From an uncultured Lentisphaerota bacterium (GTDB taxonomy: Bacteria > Verrucomicrobiota > Kiritimatiellia > RFP12 > UBA1067): a stretch of 64,000 nt of DNA. Below are positions 26,071-35,547 of the stretch, piece by piece. Position 1 is the stretch's first letter. Each line of letters begins with the position of its first letter. Under the pieces are notes generated by a model, which saw only the letters and a program-made list of their open reading frames with translations, searched no databases and was not told where the DNA came from. The stretch lies in the NCBI GenBank assembly GCA_946413265.1, contig CAMKJU010000008.1:1379-65378 (forward strand), given 5' to 3'. Both the position numbers and the translations under genes were made by a program.

Positions 26071-26125
26071 AAATCTTCATCCGCGCTTTCACTCTCCCTG
26101 CCGATTTGCTATACTTGTTTCCGCC

Positions 26126-26980
26126 ATGTTGAGGCAATCTTTTACAGACTTCATCTTCGCCACGAACACGGACGGGAGCGGCAAGGCCGCATCATACGTC
26201 CGCGCGCTCGACATGCTCGGTCCCATTCTGACGAAACACTACCCGAACCCGGTCGTCGGCGGCTCCATGTGGCACAGTTTTTCACTCGCAGACATCCACG
26301 CCCTACACGAATGGATATGTGCCGAAATGAAGAAGGGCACGGCAAGCCCTGTATTGGCGGACTTTGAATCGCCGAGCTACTGGACGAAGAACTTCTGTTC
26401 GGCGGCGGTTCGTGCCTATGGCGAATTTCTGGCGACAGAGGCGTTTGAGGATGGCATTGTCGCAAAGGTGTCGGGCGAGACCGGCGGCAAGGCCGTCGCG
26501 CAAAAGGCCGAGTCGCTGATTGACGCTACATCGCAAACCGACCTTGAAGCGCATCTGAATCTCACCGCGAAGGAAGGCAAGACGAAACTTGCCGCGGTCA
26601 AGGTGCGCGTGAATCAAGACATCTTCCGCAAGATGGTTTTGGCGAACTACGGCGGTAAATGTTGCGTGACGGGACTCGCCGTGCCGGACGTCCTTCGCGC
26701 CAGCCACATCAGCCCGTGGGCGGAAGACGAAAAGAACCGCCTCAATCCTGAAAACGGCTTGTGCCTCTCCGCCACATACGACGCAGCCTTTGACCGTCAC
26801 CTCATTTCCTTCGACGAACACTATCGCCTCATCGTCTCGAAGGCAATCAAAGACCACTACACCGACGCGGCGGCAAGGTCCTACTTCCTTGATCGCGAAG
26901 GACAGACCATGTCGTTGCCTACAAAGTTTCTGCCGTCACAGTTGTTGCTTGAAAAGCATAGGGAGTTGCTTGCGGGATGA
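26126..26980 (+). CDS. HNH endonuclease (HNH_2/PF13391-type)
   Basis: Pattern R.NQ..FR..VL..Y...C.VTGL…ASHI.PW…NGLCL…AFD…I(S)FD. TGcTATACT -10 box at 26107-26115 just upstream. Confidence 0.6.
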   Translation: MLRQSFTDFIFATNTDGSGKAASYVRALDMLGPILTKHYPNPVVGGSMWHSFSLADIHALHEWICAEMKKGTASPVLADFESPSYWTKNFCSAAVRAYGEFLATEAFEDGIVAKVSGETGGKAVAQKAESLIDATSQTDLEAHLNLTAKEGKTKLAAVKVRVNQDIFRKMVLANYGGKCCVTGLAVPDVLRASHISPWAEDEKNRLNPENGLCLSATYDAAFDRHLISFDEHYRLIVSKAIKDHYTDAAARSYFLDREGQTMSLPTKFLPSQLLLEKHRELLAG

Positions 26981-28128
26981 ATTATGCGGTGATATATGAA
27001 GCGCTGATTGATAAACGGCGCAAATTCCCATTGAGTAAGAGCAATGGGTATTGTGAACGGCACCATTACATACCCCGATGCATGGGTGGTGGAAATGATA
27101 AGTGGAATATTGTTAATCTGACAGCAAAAGAACATTTTATCGCTCATCATCTTCTATGTAAAATAAATCCCAAGGAGATGAAATTGCTTAATGCCTTTAT
27201 TGCCATGTGTACAAAGACGACGCGGCAAAAAAGGGATATTCATATTTCGGCAAGGCGGTATGAGCAACTTAAACATGACTATGGCGAGATGCGTCGGCAC
27301 ATGTTCGCAACCATGCCAGATGAATTAAGAGAAAAACGGCGGAAAAATATAAAAGCAGGATGCGCAAGACGGTCTCCTGAACAAAAAGCGCAGATTAAAG
27401 CTAAGCGACTAGCATATTTCTCTTCATTAACGGATGAAGAAAAGGAAAAGATTCGTCAGAAACGTAATCAGACAATTGCTTCCCGATCCGAAGATAGGAA
27501 GAATGAGATATTTGAAACGATTTCCAGAGCTCATCGCAAACTGTCTGAGGCAGATGAGCAGAATGTAATTACGGAGTATCTTGGTGGTAAGACTGCAAAG
27601 GAGATTGCTAGTGAGGCATGGTGCGAATTGAGCAGAGAAGGCGTGAATTATTTGCTAAGAAGGAGAGGTGTTGCAACACACGCACAAAGAAGATGGGATG
27701 GTAAGATAGAGCAGATATGTGAGGACTATAAGAACTGTAAGTATCCTACACATGATGCGCTTGCCAAAGCATACGGCACAAGTTGGGGTACCATATTAAA
27801 GATACTAAACGACAATGGCGTTCATGTGCCGAAGAATCCCAATAGGCAGAACGCCTCTTCGGCGCGTGAGGCTCAGCGATTAATGTCAGAACGCATTTCG
27901 TATAAAGCGCCATTCTCACATACAGGCATCACCGATATCTCGCTTTATGACGCAATTCGCCGATTGAGAATGTTTGGATTGATTCCAAGTACAGAGACAC
28001 AGCGCAATGTTTTGAAGAAGATTCGTCATGCGTTACGAGGTGAAACAAAGTATGCATTCGGTTATGAGTGGCGGAGTGTTATGTGCCATTTACCGAAAGG
28101 AGTAGATGATGAGTGGATTAATGCCTAA
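26977..28128 (+). CDS. HNH endonuclease (phage-type HNH N-terminus) with a long basic C-terminal extension. Lower GC.
   Basis: HHYIPRCMGGGNDKWNIVNLTAKEHFIAHHLL motif. GC drops sharply at ~26980. Confidence 0.6.
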   Translation: MNYAVIYEALIDKRRKFPLSKSNGYCERHHYIPRCMGGGNDKWNIVNLTAKEHFIAHHLLCKINPKEMKLLNAFIAMCTKTTRQKRDIHISARRYEQLKHDYGEMRRHMFATMPDELREKRRKNIKAGCARRSPEQKAQIKAKRLAYFSSLTDEEKEKIRQKRNQTIASRSEDRKNEIFETISRAHRKLSEADEQNVITEYLGGKTAKEIASEAWCELSREGVNYLLRRRGVATHAQRRWDGKIEQICEDYKNCKYPTHDALAKAYGTSWGTILKILNDNGVHVPKNPNRQNASSAREAQRLMSERISYKAPFSHTGITDISLYDAIRRLRMFGLIPSTETQRNVLKKIRHALRGETKYAFGYEWRSVMCHLPKGVDDEWINA

Positions 28129-28357
28129 CGAACCTGATACACTGCTTGTGAAAATGACAGTTGCGGACTGTGCAGATTACTGCCGCGCGAAATTCCCCAA
28201 GAATCCACCAACAAGGAAAGACGGAGTCATACGGTCTATTAAAACGGCTTTTAATTTCAAGGCTGATGTTTCTGATGAGTTTGCTGAAAAGATTTATCAG
28301 AAGATGAAAAACAAGAGATGGTTCGCCGAGGAAGGTAATAAAATCATTTGGGCGTGA
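28106..28357 (+). CDS. Small hypothetical protein (83 aa)
   Basis: AAAGGAG RBS. Overlaps the 3' end of the preceding gene. Confidence 0.35.
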   Translation: MMSGLMPNEPDTLLVKMTVADCADYCRAKFPKNPPTRKDGVIRSIKTAFNFKADVSDEFAEKIYQKMKNKRWFAEEGNKIIWA

Positions 28358-28393
28358 CCACTGGTATGTCCAAATCGCTTAAAAGGAGTTTTA

Positions 28394-33581: not shown

Positions 33582-33733
33582 GAGTGCGTATGGAACTTAT
33601 GAAAACAAAAGACTTGCGTATACAAGGCGTGGTCTACACCGATACGGTAAACTGGCAATTTCCCGTTTGTAAAGAACTGAAGCAGATGGGATATAACGTC
33701 GATTTGAATTGGTTGATTTGAGGGTTTGAAGAT

Positions 33734-34549
33734 ATGATCTGGCATTACACGTCTATGTCGGTTCTGCATGAACTTATGAAGCCTGGGTCGAAACTTTATG
33801 CGACTCATACCTCGTTTGTTAATGATACTCAGGAGTGTAGAGTGGCTGCTCAAGCAAGCGCAACATATGTGACGTTGTTGTGCAATTTGTGGCGTGGTGC
33901 ATTGGAGGTCCCTTCAGAAGAAAAAGCTGTGAAGGACATTAATGATGGTGAGTTGGCTCCAAGGTTTATAACCTGTTTCTCCAGAAATGGAGACCGTTTG
34001 TCTCAATGGCGGGGATATGCACCTGAGAATGGTTGTTCTATTGGAATTGATTTTGATGAATTGAGGAATTCATTATTACCTTCACTTTGTTATCCTTCTA
34101 AGATAGGCCTTGCTGATTGCGTGTATAAAAGTGCACAAGAATTGAAAGAGCAAATTGAGGGATTCTCAGACGAAGCCAAGCGCATCCATGAGATGTCAAA
34201 TACTATAATGGATACAATGAATATATATTTCAAAGTGGGAGATGAATATTCGATAGAAGAACGGGAAGAAAAGCATAAATTACGTAAGGCGTTTGAGCTA
34301 GAGATTGATAATGCTGTCGCCCGGGCTTTTGAGTCTCTGTTTTGGAAACATCAAGCATTTATTGAAGAGGCGGAGGTTCGGTTGGCGTTATTGTATGATG
34401 GGGGATTGCCGACCAGGGATATTGAAGTAATTGGTGGCGTTCCGCGGGTTGGAGTGAGATTGAAGACTCCGATACGTGCATTATTACGTGAAGTGGTAAT
34501 TGGCCCAGGTCCAGATATGGCACGTAATGTTCTTGTGGCGAGGGCATAG
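33734..34549 (+). CDS. DUF2971-family protein
   Basis: N-terminal pattern WHYTSMSVLHELM..GSKLYATHTSFVNDTQE matches the DUF2971 LYKYTS…FNDP.E signature. Confidence 0.45.
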   Translation: MIWHYTSMSVLHELMKPGSKLYATHTSFVNDTQECRVAAQASATYVTLLCNLWRGALEVPSEEKAVKDINDGELAPRFITCFSRNGDRLSQWRGYAPENGCSIGIDFDELRNSLLPSLCYPSKIGLADCVYKSAQELKEQIEGFSDEAKRIHEMSNTIMDTMNIYFKVGDEYSIEEREEKHKLRKAFELEIDNAVARAFESLFWKHQAFIEEAEVRLALLYDGGLPTRDIEVIGGVPRVGVRLKTPIRALLREVVIGPGPDMARNVLVARA

Positions 34550-34617
34550 TGTTTGAAATATGGATTGAAAATATGTATAAGGGAAAGCGAAATACCTTTT
34601 AGTGGCACATTTAAGAA

Positions 34618-34980
34618 GTGAGCAAATATATGTCGGTACCAACGGAAGAGATTGTGGAACTGGCAAAACAATACTTTTGCCATGTAAATTTGTTGCGCCT
34701 TAGTGTTTCGGGCAAGATGATATGGATGTTGAATGTATTACGCAAGATGGGATGTCAGCAGTTTTATGAAGATTTAGCGCAGATGGCGGAGGATGGGTTA
34801 GTGGTTTTCCCAGATGGAACATATTTAAGCGCGAGGTTGACGGATAAGGGGCAGAGCGTTGTAAATTATATGAATTTGCATATGAGTGAACTATCAAAAG
34901 TATGCGGTACTCAAGGAGATGGCACAATAAGATATGATTATGTTAATCATACGGCAGGGGAGCAACAGGGACCCCGTTGA
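34618..34980 (+). CDS. Hypothetical protein. Its 3' end and stop lie inside a 'ccccgttgaca' repeat element.
   Basis: ORF in the low-GC island. The C-terminal codons are shared with the repeat that also ends the 37542 gene. Confidence 0.35.
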   Translation: MSKYMSVPTEEIVELAKQYFCHVNLLRLSVSGKMIWMLNVLRKMGCQQFYEDLAQMAEDGLVVFPDGTYLSARLTDKGQSVVNYMNLHMSELSKVCGTQGDGTIRYDYVNHTAGEQQGPR

Positions 34981-35547
34981 CACAGCAGGATTGACATAGC
35001 AGCATGAGAGGTGATGTCATGGGACTTGTTAAAACCAGAAGACTTGCGGCGATGCAGAAGCAGCAGCGCGCGAAGGCGGGGATGAAACTGCCAACGCCCA
35101 AACCGGCGCGGAAGTGCGCGCCGTTCCCACAGTACCCTTCAAAACCTCCCCACACGAAGTTCCTTCGCCCAAACCTGTAGCACTTCCCCTGTTGACCCGC
35201 TACGTCACATATTCGAATATGTGACGTGCCGTGCAATGGGGGAGAGCGATGGTCATGCGAGGAGGAGGCGAGATTATTGGACTTGTGAAGATCTGGCGGC
35301 GGCTCGCCGAGGACGGCTCGCCCCACCGGGCGGCGGTCGCGGGGCGACCGCCCTACCGGGCGATGCAGAAGCAGCAGCGCGCGAGGGGTGAAGCTGTCGA
35401 TGGGCGACGGCACGCGGAAATGCGTGTCATTCTCTCCGTCATTTCCAAAGTTCCCCCGCAAAATTCCTTCCGATGTCGTCCTCACCATTGCGCGGTACGT
35501 CACATATTCGAATAAGTGACGTACCGCGTTATGGGGGAGAGCGATGG

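What the first reader, a model, noticed from the sequence alone, without database searches (positions are those of the whole stretch)
26100..35000. Horizontally acquired low-GC defence island
GC falls from ~65% to ~40-45% between ~26980 and ~35000, dropping to ~35% at 29965..30867. The segment packs three HNH endonucleases, a GmrSD-type DUF262/DUF1524 type IV restriction enzyme, RadC-JAB and DUF2971, and it follows an AbiEi/AbiEii pair and a DUF1016 remnant. All genes are co-oriented and tightly spaced, several with overlapping stops and starts. The island is bounded by dense repeat clusters on both sides. This composition is typical of defence islands, which also harbour uncharacterised systems.
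Basis: partly seen in the sequence, partly recalled or inferred. Interest (0 to 1): 0.6.

Follow-up and report, generated by a model that had tools for sequence, protein, structure and literature searches.

The report
Variable defence-gene hotspot in rumen Kiritimatiellae
This is a genuine low-GC cluster of anti-phage genes, sitting in a chromosomal hotspot shared by rumen Kiritimatiellae, where foreign restriction and abortive-infection genes are swapped gene by gene around two conserved resident genes; it is a clear but ordinary example of a defence island.

Summary
GC is 43% at 26981-30932 and 31812-34980, against 61% elsewhere in the window. The dip is split by a 59% GC gene, RadC (30942-31811).

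All the gene calls were reproduced, with two qualifications:
- Two of the HNH genes are restriction-type HNH_2. The third is a T4 Mob-like homing endonuclease.
- The 300-aa gene at the GC minimum is an unannotated protein with an RnlA-like fold and a C-terminal HEPN-like domain.

Forty-two related loci from ruminant-gut Kiritimatiellae carry the same RadC gene at about 58% GC. In 36 of 36 loci the 2 kb upstream is more than 5 GC points lower than RadC. The nearest upstream gene falls into 24 unrelated families. These are mostly type II restriction-modification systems, plus AIPR and Schlafen-helicase/NUDIX. Downstream cargo includes three kinds of GmrSD, Vsr and toxin-antitoxin genes.

One relative has the same chromosomal site, but 13.8 kb of the window is replaced by 4.2 kb. 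No integrase, supported tRNA, att repeat or phage gene was found in any stretch examined.

Verdict: a mosaic defence island at a lineage-conserved hotspot, built by repeated single-gene or cassette gain and loss. It was not acquired as one block. It is a new member of a known kind and of moderate interest.

The parts
22956..23241 (.). GC-rich repeat element (copy A), followed by five 22-nt tandem units at 23132-23241
23486..24005 (+). DUF1016/YhcG nuclease remnant. An N-terminal 116 aa is joined to a frameshifted C-terminal 62 aa, and the middle is deleted.
   Evidence: the full-length L020 homologue (373 aa) matches 23477-23818 at 49% and 23820-24005 at 87%. Sequence.
24054..24290 (.). GC-rich repeat element (copy B). 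ARAGORN calls a tRNA-Ser at 24174-24260, but this is not supported.
   Evidence: Rfam finds no tRNA anywhere in the window.
24413..24940 (+). AbiEi antitoxin/regulator
   Evidence: Pfam AbiEi_4, 5e-9
24940..25767 (+). AbiEii nucleotidyltransferase toxin. Its start overlaps the AbiEi stop by 1 nt.
   Evidence: Pfam AbiEii, 3e-14; ORF reading
25830..26100 (.). GC-rich repeat element (copy C), 93% identical to copy B. This is the left repeat cluster.
26126..26980 (+). HNH_2a: resident left anchor gene (GC 0.57, GC3 0.71). It has an HNH_2 nuclease C-terminus (SHISPW...NGLCL) and an unknown N-terminus.
   Evidence: Pfam HNH_2 1e-12; PADLOC PDLC04132 3e-50. Copies at 81-93% aa identity, whole or as fragments, in L004, L014, L017, L020, L027, L030 and L053.
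26977..28128 (+). Free-standing Mob-like HNH homing endonuclease (GC 0.43). It fills the spacer between HNH_2a and orf83.
   Evidence: phrog_655, 6e-40. 29-35% identity to homing endonucleases of T4-like phages. Window 26965-28096 has no counterpart in L053, where HNH_2a and orf83 are separated only by a short unrelated spacer.
28106..28357 (+). orf83, unknown function
   Evidence: No hit in Pfam, PADLOC or PHROGs. Conserved in L053 at 93%.
28394..29164 (+). HNH_2b: restriction-type HNH nuclease (GC 0.46). No methyltransferase lies nearby, so a type IV-like or solitary enzyme is inferred.
   Evidence: Pfam HNH_2 1e-13; PADLOC PDLC04132 3e-83 over nearly the full length; NCBIfam PT-DNA_restrict 72 bits, below its cut-off of 180
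29161..29912 (+). Three small ORFs: orf74 (29161-29385), orf70 (29398-29610) and orf98 (29616-29912). Function unknown. orf70 and orf98 recur next to RadC in 8 loci each.
   Evidence: No family hits.
29965..30867 (+). HEPN300: 300-aa protein at the GC minimum (0.38). It has an N-terminal alpha/beta domain and a C-terminal all-helical HEPN-like domain with the motif R252-DY-R255-N256-YI-H259. Predicted abortive-infection RNase.
   Evidence: No Pfam, PADLOC, PHROG or NCBIfam hit. R255, N256 and H259 are invariant in 51 homologues. AF2 pLDDT 86. Best Foldseek PDB hits are RnlA, LsoA and HEPN domains. Homologues lie next to CBASS, McrBC, HipBA and HigBA.
30942..31811 (+). RadC anchor gene: resident (GC 0.59, GC3 0.71). 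It has an N-terminal ASCH-like domain (G19-IKRTENR) and a C-terminal RadC-type JAB domain (H233-NHPSGD...S243-KAD).
   Evidence: Pfam RadC 1e-26. PDB 2qlc 1e-18, with ASC-1 ASCH chains as the only other hits at E about 0.4. Found in 42 related loci.
31842..33581 (+). GmrSD-family (HEC-06-like) type IV restriction enzyme. DGQQR at aa 83-87 and the EIEHI nuclease motif at aa 472-476 are intact.
   Evidence: Pfam GmrSD_N 9e-43; PADLOC HEC-06 3e-38 over the full length. Motifs located. The gene occurs alone, at 76-80% nt identity, in other 65% GC genomes in other contexts.
33734..34549 (+). DUF2971 protein. Here it is truncated by a TTG>TAG change at 34548; it is 295 aa in L001 and L025.
   Evidence: Pfam DUF2971 4e-8; nonsense change shown
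34618..34980 (+). orf120, unknown function. It is the last low-GC gene and is conserved with GmrSD and DUF2971 in L025.
34969..35560 (.). Right repeat cluster: a 99-nt repeat (also at 37538 and 38045), 45-nt palindromes and GC-rich elements
35548..37542 (.). Rest of the variable region: an ArsR-like HTH gene (35548-36222, minus strand), repeats at 36285-36520, and a Kinase-PolyVal gene (36685-37542, plus strand)
   Evidence: Pfam results; repeats

Best explanation
The segment is the cargo of a chromosomal defence hotspot that is conserved across ruminant-gut Kiritimatiellae.

Scaffold (shown). Two resident genes with host-like composition form a stable scaffold. They are a restriction-type HNH_2 gene (26126-26980) and an ASCH-like/RadC-JAB gene (30942-31811). 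Small ORFs orf70 and orf98 often accompany them. Low-GC foreign genes are repeatedly inserted, replaced and deleted around this scaffold, one gene or one short cassette at a time. Breakpoints fall at gene boundaries or inside the anchor genes.

Cargo in this genome. All of it works without a methyltransferase:
- AbiEi/AbiEii, an abortive-infection toxin-antitoxin pair.
- Two HNH_2 nucleases.
- A GmrSD/HEC-06-like NTP-dependent nuclease, expected to cut modified phage DNA.
- A standalone 300-aa HEPN-like protein. I infer that it is an RNase which arrests translation on infection, like RnlA/LsoA.
- DUF2971 and five small ORFs of unknown role.
- A Mob-like HNH homing endonuclease, which is a selfish passenger in an intergenic spacer.

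How exchange occurs (inferred). Turnover most likely proceeds by homologous recombination of incoming DNA at the conserved anchors and at the repeat elements between modules. Illegitimate insertions and deletions add to it.

Status of the claims. The gene identities, the composition, the mosaic structure and the hotspot are shown. The anti-phage activities and the recombination route are inferred.
For: Composition.
- Cargo is 0.43 GC with GC3 0.38-0.54.
- The anchors have GC3 0.71 and core genes 0.62-0.94.

Hotspot.
- Forty-two related loci carry the RadC anchor. Most share 66-96% aa identity; the extremes are 49% (L050) and 60% (L004). Record titles name Kiritimatiellae/Kiritimatiellia and 'Verrucomicrobia UBA' genomes, and samples come from roe-deer omasum and bovine rumen.
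- RadC averages 0.58 GC. The upstream 2 kb averages 0.45 and is lower in 36 of 36 loci. The downstream 2 kb averages 0.48 and is lower in 14 of 16.
- The nearest upstream ORF falls into 24 unrelated clusters across 36 loci. The nearest downstream ORF falls into 9 clusters across 15 loci.

Cargo identities in relatives.
- Upstream: C5 methylases paired with MvaI/BcnI, EcoRII, HpaII, Eco47II, Bpu10I or HNH_2 nucleases; also AIPR, MTaX1, DUF4928, DUF2357/PDDEXK_7, and NUDIX with a Schlafen helicase.
- Downstream: three kinds of GmrSD, Vsr, DUF4268, DUF7380/DUF4209, FRG, a DUF6361+PLD+helicase set, and an AAA protein with Gp49/HI1420.

Same site, different content.
- L025 matches the nitroreductase gene at 87% nt and RadC-GmrSD-DUF2971-orf120 at 91% nt. 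It has 4.2 kb where the window has 13.8 kb.

Gene-level mosaic.
- L004-7 keep HNH_2a, orf70, orf98, HEPN300 and the RadC N-terminus at 87-89% nt, but both cargo blocks are swapped.
- L053 lacks exactly the homing-endonuclease gene, and also orf98 plus HEPN300.
- GmrSD occurs alone in other genomic contexts.
- Conservation around RadC starts at its start codon and ends at its stop codon.

No mobility genes in the regions examined.
- No recombinase or conjugation domain appeared in any Pfam table or precomputed annotation.
- Rfam finds no tRNA.
- The IMG/VR viral collection holds no RadC relative.

Intact catalytic motifs.
- They are present in GmrSD, both HNH_2 proteins, HEPN300 and RadC.
- HEC-06 defence depends on the same DGQQR and E-H motifs (bioRxiv 10.1101/2024.01.29.577857, read).
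Against: - No experiment or expression data exist, so every activity is inferred from homology.
- Only one relative (L025) demonstrably shares an outer chromosomal flank. The other loci show the anchors but not the same flanks within 10 kb. The whole anchor module could therefore itself sit at different places, or on an element whose mobility genes lie beyond the sampled flanks.
- A DnaD/HTH_36 replication-initiator-like gene (20608-21486) and a Kinase-PolyVal gene (36685-37542) are typical of mobile elements.
- The RadC-GmrSD-DUF2971-orf120 block is shared at 91% nt with L025, so part of the low-GC cargo is old rather than recent.
- The function of DUF2971, orf83, orf74, orf70, orf98 and orf120 is unknown. 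They need not be defence genes.
- Most relatives are metagenome bins, so binning and taxonomy labels are imperfect. One contig is labelled Lachnospiraceae.
Confidence: 0.8

Rival explanations
1. The region is the accessory or decayed part of an integrated mobile element (an integrative mobilisable or conjugative element, or a satellite or prophage remnant). RadC, Kinase-PolyVal and the DnaD-like gene would be element genes, and the defence genes its cargo. The 'hotspot' would then be a cargo slot of a family of elements, as with the P2/P4 hotspots.
For: - An HTH_36/DnaD_N gene at 20608-21486 sits beside orf224. The same pair recurs downstream of RadC in L014.
- Kinase-PolyVal is at 36685-37542.
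- As background knowledge, RadC-JAB genes are common on plasmids, conjugative elements and phages.
- The anchors occur with different outer flanks in most loci.
- A phage-type homing endonuclease is present.
Against: - No integrase, relaxase, type IV secretion, capsid or terminase domain appears in the window or in the Pfam-annotated genes flanking RadC in L004, L025, L027 and L030, or among selected ORFs of L014, L015 and L019.
- There is no supported tRNA and no att-like direct repeat. The ARAGORN tRNA lies within one copy of a three-copy repeat element and is not found by Rfam.
- RadC has no relative in IMG/VR.
- The anchors have host-like GC3.
- L025 shares the core left flank.
Confidence: 0.13
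2. The ASCH-like/RadC gene is not a passive landmark but a working partner of the neighbouring restriction modules. For example, it could be a reader or processor of modified DNA that serves whichever type II or type IV enzyme sits beside it. It could equally be an anti-restriction or self-protection factor that lets new restriction genes establish.
For: - The gene is tightly packed with neighbours that are nearly all restriction enzymes, and its start overlaps the upstream gene in L014, L016, L017, L027 and L048.
- C5-methylase-linked type II systems lie upstream and GmrSD or Vsr downstream in many loci.
- The GxKxxExR motif is typical of ASCH (PUA-like) domains (alignment).
- The JAB metal-binding motif is invariant.
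Against: - The neighbours include unrelated non-restriction genes: HEPN300, SEC-C, FRG, an AAA protein and toxin-antitoxin genes.
- The composition of RadC differs from that of its neighbours, which argues against co-transfer as one system.
- ASCH membership is not confirmed. There is no Pfam hit and the AF2 model is poor (pLDDT 42).
- The pattern is equally expected from a neutral hotspot.
Confidence: 0.1
3. The GC step is an assembly chimera that joins DNA of a low-GC organism to a Kiritimatiellae contig.
For: The window appears to derive from a metagenome-assembled genome, and the GC steps are abrupt.
Against: - Independent assemblies from other samples reproduce the sequence at 99.5-100% identity. 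These are ENA ERZ12289769, Logan SRR12081295 and ENA ERZ28613658. The first spans both GC junctions.
- The same high-GC anchor embedded in low-GC flanks is seen in 36 further loci.
- Anchor and cargo genes share overlapping stop and start codons.
Confidence: 0.02

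Closest known systems
Core-gene-flanked defence hotspots: cDHS1/2 of Pseudomonas aeruginosa (PMC10250203) and the E. coli defence-island hotspots (PMC10121019)
   Same: - Conserved marker genes with hypervariable defence cargo.
- Cargo of lower GC than the host. cDHS1 is 58.9% against 65.3%. Here it is 43% against 61%.
- No obligatory mobility genes.
- Content differs between close relatives.
   Different: - A different phylum (Kiritimatiellota, from the ruminant gut) and different markers.
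- A conserved gene (RadC) sits inside the island, with cargo on both sides.
- The GC contrast is much larger.
- The cargo is dominated by restriction enzymes.
- The same chromosomal position is shown for only one relative.
GmrSD-family type IV restriction enzymes: Eco94GmrSD, BrxU and HEC-06 (PMC4619093; bioRxiv 10.1101/2024.01.29.577857)
   Same: - A single chain with an N-terminal DUF262 domain carrying DGQQR and a C-terminal DUF1524-type nuclease carrying an E-H motif. The motif is at aa 474-475; in HEC-06 it is E471/H472.
- Full-length matches to the PADLOC HEC-06 models.
   Different: - The Pfam GmrSD_C score is below its cut-off.
- Substrate specificity is unknown.
- The closest named homologue (63% identity) is from a Bacteroidales bin.
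RnlA and LsoA, HEPN RNase toxins of anti-T4 toxin-antitoxin systems (PMC8266594)
   Same: - An N-terminal alpha/beta domain followed by a C-terminal helical HEPN domain with a conserved Arg...His motif.
- RnlA and LsoA are the best Foldseek PDB hits.
- Homologues lie in defence islands.
   Different: - No sequence similarity (PDB profile search negative).
- Weak fold scores (best E 6e-3, whole-chain TM about 0.2; HEPN-domain TM 0.5-0.64).
- One N-terminal domain instead of two.
- No conserved antitoxin partner.
- The motif is RDYRNYIH.
ScoMcrA-type and PT-DNA-binding HNH restriction endonucleases (NCBIfam NF045808); PADLOC HNH model PDLC04132
   Same: A C-terminal HNH_2 (PF13391) nuclease domain, solitary and without a methyltransferase.
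   Different: - NF045808 scores are 47 and 72 bits against a cut-off of 180, and cover only the nuclease half.
- The N-terminal domains are unrelated or unknown.
T4-family Mob-type free-standing HNH homing endonucleases
   Same: - An N-terminal HNH motif (HH...N...H).
- phrog_655 over 275 aa.
- Intergenic position with presence/absence polymorphism.
   Different: - Only 29-35% identity.
- Located in a bacterial chromosome rather than a phage.
- Target site unknown.
AbiE (AbiEi/AbiEii) type IV toxin-antitoxin abortive-infection system
   Same: The two-gene order, the overlapping genes and both Pfam domains.
   Different: The pair has near-host GC (0.55-0.59) and lies outside the low-GC segment, between repeat elements.

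Membership tests
Defence island | Several recognised defence genes are clustered within a few kb | tested here: met
   AbiEi/AbiEii, two HNH_2 nucleases (PADLOC PDLC04132) and a GmrSD/HEC-06-like enzyme lie within 11 kb.
Defence island | Content varies between related genomes, indicating horizontal turnover | tested here: met
   L004-7, L020, L025 and L053 differ gene by gene. The upstream neighbour of RadC falls into 24 families across 36 loci.
Defence island | Composition is atypical for the host | tested here: met
   GC 0.43 against 0.61 and GC3 0.38-0.54 against 0.62-0.94.
Core-flanked defence hotspot (cDHS type) | Conserved marker genes delimit the variable region across many genomes | tested here: met
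   The RadC anchor is in 42 related loci. HNH_2a, whole or as fragments, is in 7 of them at 81-93% aa identity.
Core-flanked defence hotspot (cDHS type) | The chromosomal position is the same in different strains or species | tested here: inconclusive
   Only L025/L026 share the nitroreductase flank. The other loci show no window flank within 10 kb.
Core-flanked defence hotspot (cDHS type) | The region is not itself a recognisable mobile element | tested here: met
   No integrase, relaxase or phage domains were found. There is no tRNA in Rfam and no IMG/VR relative of RadC. This holds only within the sampled flanks.
Integrative mobile element (prophage, conjugative or mobilisable element) | A recombinase plus an attachment site, often a tRNA with a direct repeat | tested here: not met
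   No recombinase was found. The ARAGORN tRNA-Ser lies within one copy of a three-copy GC-rich repeat element and is absent from Rfam.
GmrSD family (type IV restriction) | N-terminal DUF262 domain with the DGQQR motif | tested here: met
   GmrSD_N at 9e-43. DGQQR is at aa 83-87.
GmrSD family (type IV restriction) | C-terminal DUF1524 nuclease with a (D/E)H...N motif | tested here: inconclusive
   Pfam GmrSD_C scores 17.6 bits, below its cut-off of 23. However, PADLOC HEC-06 aligns residues 4-527, and the EIEHI and GNKAIL motifs are present.
GmrSD family (type IV restriction) | Modification-dependent, NTP-stimulated DNA cleavage | not testable with these tools
   This needs biochemistry or phage assays.
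HEPN superfamily / RnlA-like toxins | A conserved Rx4-6H catalytic motif | tested here: met
   R252-x6-H259 is present. R255, N256 and H259 are invariant and R252 is conserved in at least 90% of 51 homologues.
HEPN superfamily / RnlA-like toxins | A helical HEPN fold | tested here: inconclusive
HEPN superfamily / RnlA-like toxins | A cognate antitoxin gene (RnlB or LsoB type) | tested here: not met
   No neighbour is conserved across homologue contexts.
HNH_2 nucleases / PT-DNA restriction endonuclease (NF045808) | A score above the curated NCBIfam cut-off over the full length | tested here: not met
   Scores are 47.5 and 72.4 bits against a cut-off of 180, over the nuclease half only. Pfam HNH_2 itself is met.
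Free-standing HNH homing endonuclease | Homology to phage homing endonucleases, plus an intergenic presence/absence polymorphism | tested here: met
   phrog_655 at 6e-40, with Mob-like phage hits. The gene is absent from L053, where HNH_2a and orf83 are separated only by a short spacer. Cleavage was not tested.
RadC-like JAB domain proteins | A PF04002 match with the JAB metal motif (HxH...S..D) | tested here: met
   Pfam RadC at 1e-26 and PDB 2qlc at 1e-18. The HNHPSGD...SKAD motif is invariant.
ASCH domain (N-terminus of the RadC anchor) | The GxKxxExR motif in a PUA-like beta-barrel | tested here: inconclusive
   The motif GIKRTENR is present and invariant. The only non-RadC PDB hits are ASC-1 ASCH domains, at E about 0.4. 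Pfam gives no hit, and the AF2 model is unusable at pLDDT 42.
AbiE | An adjacent AbiEi and AbiEii pair | tested here: met
   AbiEi_4 at 5e-9 and AbiEii at 3e-14, with a 1-nt overlap.

The most novel reading that the evidence does not exclude
The conserved ASCH-like/RadC-JAB gene may be an active component of the hotspot rather than a landmark. It could be a reader or processor of modified nucleic acid that works with, or buffers the toxicity of, whichever restriction module lands next to it. Type II C5-methylase systems lie upstream and GmrSD-type enzymes downstream. Alternatively, it could promote capture of incoming cassettes. Separately, HEPN300 would be a new standalone family of abortive-infection RNases with an RnlA-like fold and no antitoxin.
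Probability: 0.12. Interest if true: 0.7.

Novelty: new member of a known kind. Interest (0 to 1): 0.36.

Why it matters
Defence hotspots have been mapped mainly in Proteobacteria. This one provides a marker gene, the ASCH-like/RadC gene, that retrieves dozens of variable defence cassettes from uncultured rumen Kiritimatiellae, a phylum with almost no defence-system literature.

It can therefore be used for guilt-by-association mining of new systems. Unannotated neighbours include HEPN300, orf70, orf98, DUF2971 and the 254-, 283-, 279-, 415- and 301-aa proteins in related loci.

The 15-20-point GC contrast between anchors and cargo also makes this a clean natural record of gene flow from low-GC gut bacteria or their phages into a high-GC lineage. 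It adds no new principle.

Tried and rejected
- **tRNA-linked integration.** ARAGORN called a tRNA-Ser(aga) at 24174-24260, with 93% and 60% direct copies at 25884 and 22993. That looked like att duplications. Rfam finds no tRNA. The alignment shows a three-hairpin GC-rich repeat element also present elsewhere. Rejected.
- **Phage origin of the module.** The RadC anchor has no relative in IMG/VR. The homing endonuclease has only one distant hit there, at 28%.
- **An integron-like or attC-like signal next to RadC.** Upstream and downstream junctions from 10 loci share nothing outside the coding sequence.
- **Structure of the RadC anchor, to confirm ASCH.** The homologue alignment was too shallow, and the model reached only pLDDT 42. 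It was not searched.
- **PDB profile search for HEPN300.** It found nothing meaningful.
- **Pfam at E up to 10 for the small ORFs and N-terminal domains.** Nothing was found.
- **Promoter and terminator scan of the island.** There were 21 promoter-like sites against 12.7 ± 3.9 expected in shuffled sequence, most of them on the non-coding strand, and fewer terminator-like sites than expected. The scan was uninformative.
- **Literature on RadC hotspots or Kiritimatiellae defence.** Nothing relevant was found.
- **Exact-sequence look-up of the NUDIX flank protein.** It is not on record.

Full report

Yes. In non-overlapping 500-nt windows the low-GC DNA (27.0-34.5 kb, RadC excluded) averages 0.432 GC. 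The remaining 111 windows average 0.610 with sd 0.046. That gives z = -3.8 and Mann-Whitney p = 4e-9. Only one window elsewhere falls below 0.50.

By segment, GC is 0.429 for 26981-30932, 0.379 for 29965-30867 and 0.431 for 31812-34980. Third-codon-position GC separates three classes of gene:
- core genes such as LepA, PFK, GH97 and the LamG-like gene: 0.62-0.94;
- the two anchor genes, HNH_2a and RadC: 0.71;
- cargo genes: 0.38-0.54.

The dip is split by a 0.9-kb stretch of 59% GC, which is the RadC gene. The adjacent flanks are 55-60% GC rather than 65%.

The sequence is not an assembly artefact. Contigs from three other samples match at 99.5-100% identity, and one of them spans both GC junctions.

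**2. Gene content**

All genes from 24413 to 34980 are on the + strand. Three pairs have overlapping stop and start codons.

| Coordinates | Identity | Key evidence |
|---|---|---|
| 24413-25767 | AbiEi/AbiEii | both Pfam domains |
| 26126-26980 | HNH_2a | Pfam HNH_2 |
| 26977-28128 | Mob-like HNH homing endonuclease | no Pfam hit; phrog_655 6e-40; 29-35% identity to T4-like phage enzymes |
| 28106-28357 | orf83 | no hits |
| 28394-29164 | HNH_2b | PADLOC 'HNH' PDLC04132 3e-83; NCBIfam PT-DNA_restrict below cut-off |
| 29161-29912 | orf74, orf70, orf98 | no hits |
| 29965-30867 | 300-aa protein (HEPN300) | no hit in any library |
| 30942-31811 | RadC-JAB | Pfam RadC 1e-26 |
| 31842-33581 | GmrSD | GmrSD_N 9e-43; PADLOC HEC-06 full length; DGQQR and E-H motifs intact |
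| 33734-34549 | DUF2971 | Pfam 4e-8 |
| 34618-34980 | orf120 | no significant hit |

The DUF1016 remnant at 23486-24005 is confirmed against a full-length homologue. No methyltransferase is present. The nucleases here are therefore modification-dependent or solitary types. That last point is inference.

GC-rich repeat elements separate the modules in the high-GC part and bound the low-GC DNA on both sides. None lies inside the low-GC DNA.

**3. The 300-aa protein at the GC minimum**

About 100 homologues were found. The N-terminal half varies, and the C-terminal 130 aa or so is widespread in bacteria and archaea.

R255, N256 and H259 are invariant, and R252 is nearly so. The motif RDYRNYIH fits the HEPN pattern Rx4-6H.

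An AlphaFold model built from 51 sequences has pLDDT 86. Its best PDB matches by Foldseek are RnlA, LsoA and isolated HEPN domains: YutE, sacsin HEPN and HepT. The E-values are weak.

Homologues sit beside CBASS, an AAA_15/21 ATPase and a Dam methylase. Others sit beside HipBA, HigBA and Rhs immunity genes, or HSDR_N, McrBC and RES. No partner gene is conserved.

I infer a standalone abortive-infection RNase. This is the most plausible 'uncharacterised system' in the island.

**4. Related loci: a conserved hotspot**

The RadC protein retrieved three sets of relatives:
- 8 loci from species-representative genomes. The records are Kiritimatiellae or Kiritimatiellia bins, 'Verrucomicrobia UBA' bins and a rumen 'RUG' bin, from roe-deer omasum and similar sources.
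- 32 loci from JGI metagenomes.
- More than 120 protein clusters at 74% identity or above.

Over 43 loci, the window included, the RadC gene averages 0.58 GC. The 2 kb upstream averages 0.45 and is lower by more than 5 points in 36 of 36 loci. The 2 kb downstream averages 0.48 and is lower in 14 of 16.

The nearest upstream ORF falls into 24 unrelated clusters across 36 loci. The nearest downstream ORF falls into 9 clusters across 15 loci.

Annotated cargo is overwhelmingly defence:
- Upstream: C5 methylases with MvaI/BcnI, EcoRII, HpaII, Eco47II, Bpu10I or HNH_2 endonucleases; AIPR; MTaX1; DUF4928; DUF2357/PDDEXK_7; DUF1016; and NUDIX with a Schlafen-type helicase.
- Downstream: three kinds of GmrSD-like protein, Vsr, DUF4268, DUF7380/DUF4209, FRG, a DUF6361-PLD-helicase set, and an AAA protein with Gp49/HI1420.

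HNH_2a (7 related loci at 81-93% aa identity, whole or as fragments), orf70 (8 loci) and orf98 (8 loci) are semi-conserved members of the scaffold.

**5. The mosaic at nucleotide level**

L025 shares the nitroreductase gene at 87% and the RadC-GmrSD-DUF2971-orf120 block at 91%. Between them it has 4.2 kb (a 207-aa ORF, a methylase and MTaX1) where the window has 13.8 kb. The site is therefore the same and the content different. Part of the low-GC cargo also predates the split of these lineages.

L004-7, from bovine rumen, keep HNH_2a and the orf70-orf98-HEPN300-RadC(N-terminus) block at 87-89%. They carry NUDIX with a Schlafen helicase in place of the homing endonuclease, orf83, HNH_2b and orf74. 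They carry an AAA protein with a toxin-antitoxin pair in place of GmrSD and DUF2971. One breakpoint lies inside RadC at about 31325.

L053 lacks exactly the homing-endonuclease gene (window 26965-28096), so HNH_2a and orf83 are separated only by a short spacer. It also lacks orf98 plus HEPN300, and it has internal deletions in both HNH_2 genes.

The GmrSD gene alone occurs at 76-80% nt identity in other 65% GC genomes, next to RecBCD or an AAA_14 ATPase. It stays at about 43% GC there.

Similarity around RadC begins at its start codon and ends at its stop codon. There is no shared recombination signal.

**6. Mechanism**

Shown: a conserved scaffold, hypervariable low-GC cargo, and gain, loss and replacement at the level of single genes.

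Inferred: exchange happens by homologous recombination at the anchors and repeat elements, plus illegitimate events. The homing endonuclease is a selfish passenger.

Also inferred are the functions of the cargo: abortive infection (AbiE, HEPN300), restriction of modified DNA (GmrSD/HEC-06-like) and HNH_2 nucleases. HEC-06 has been shown experimentally to protect against phages through the same DGQQR and E-H motifs (bioRxiv 10.1101/2024.01.29.577857).

**7. Rival explanations**

A mobile-element origin cannot be fully excluded. The region holds a DnaD/HTH_36 gene and a Kinase-PolyVal gene, and the outer flanks differ in most loci.

Against it, no recombinase, conjugation or virion gene was seen in the window or in the annotated genes of seven related loci. 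The only 'tRNA' is a false positive inside a repeat. RadC has no IMG/VR relative.

A functional role for the ASCH-like/RadC anchor is possible but untested. ASCH membership is itself inconclusive.

Chimeric assembly is excluded.

**8. Comparison with what is known, and novelty**

This works like the core defence hotspots of P. aeruginosa, which have marker genes and low-GC cargo (PMC10250203), and like the E. coli defence-island hotspots (PMC10121019). It is a new instance in an unstudied phylum, with a new marker gene and an unusually strong GC contrast.

No paper on RadC-anchored hotspots or on Kiritimatiellae defence was found.

Verdict: new member of a known kind. The interest is moderate and lies mainly in its use as a mining handle and in the HEPN300 family.

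Noticed in passing
window 24174-24260 (- strand): ARAGORN predicts a tRNA-Ser(aga). The sequence lies within one copy of a three-copy GC-rich, multi-hairpin repeat element (the others are at 22993 and 25884). Rfam reports no tRNA anywhere in the 64-kb window, so this is a likely false positive that mimics an att site.
   Followed up: yes
window 15987-16251 and 42302-42566: A 265-nt inverted repeat pair, 91% complementary, brackets 26 kb that includes the whole variable region. Each arm is itself internally palindromic, like a MITE (miniature inverted-repeat element). In L030 the two halves of the element flank a PDDEXK_3 (PF13366) gene at 19405-20114, which suggests a decayed small mobile element. 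Whether the pair mediates inversion is unknown.
   Followed up: partly
window 34547-34549: The DUF2971 gene carries a TTG>TAG nonsense change relative to the otherwise 99.98%-identical contig L001 and to L025. It removes the last 24 residues (271 aa against 295 aa). This is either a strain polymorphism or a sequencing error.
   Followed up: yes
window 42250-43900: This is a second, smaller low-GC patch (0.47-0.52) holding a NYN-domain gene (43085-43585). It is flanked by the same repeat families as the main island (42178-42298, 43641-43735, 43729-43853). It may be another small cargo slot. PADLOC's HEC-09 is a NYN-domain defence candidate.
   Followed up: no
window 34969-35067, 37538-37636, 38045-38143: A 99-nt repeat carries two TTGACA-like boxes, a GAGAGGTGAT ribosome-binding-like site and an ATG that opens MGLVKTRRLAA.... 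It sits in front of different downstream sequences. It looks like a portable promoter/leader or a repeat-borne mini-ORF.
   Followed up: no
window 37597-38025 (+), partial copy 43729-43853: A 142-aa ORF has three CxxCGSxSYGHGCAYG-like cysteine-rich repeats and no family hit. Its 5' part overlaps the repeat elements.
   Followed up: no
window 23132-23241: Five tandem 22-nt units (CCCCGTGTAGGGAGAACGCATC) lie directly after a GC-rich repeat element.
   Followed up: no
L019 9650-10672: A different, low-GC RadC-like JAB gene (37% identity in the JAB domain) arrives with an Eco47II restriction-modification cassette. It is followed by a remnant of the resident RadC (residues 6-94 at 88%). Incoming cassettes can therefore bring their own RadC and displace the anchor.
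   Followed up: partly
related loci L014-L019, L025, L027, L030, L037, L047 (around position 10001 or the RadC match): There is a positional bias. C5-methylase-linked type II restriction-modification systems lie almost always upstream of RadC. GmrSD-type type IV enzymes and Vsr lie downstream. The reason is unknown. It could reflect operon polarity or a functional link to cytosine methylation.
   Followed up: partly
L003 1-482 versus window 28887-29240: One metagenome variant has an extra small ORF (a local duplication of about 70 nt plus about 127 nt of extra sequence) in the orf74/orf70 region. The small-ORF array is therefore itself unstable.
   Followed up: no
window 36685-37542: A Kinase-PolyVal (PF18762) gene stands alone between repeat elements. 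A 64%-identical copy lies upstream of RadC in L057. This domain is usually part of polyvalent proteins of phages and conjugative elements.
   Followed up: no
window 23414-23455; L020 1554-1685; L027 134-415; L030 1660-1966: Short 5' fragments of the HNH_2a gene recur at cassette boundaries in several genomes, including a 42-nt piece in the window upstream of the DUF1016 remnant. These look like scars of repeated recombination within this anchor.
   Followed up: partly
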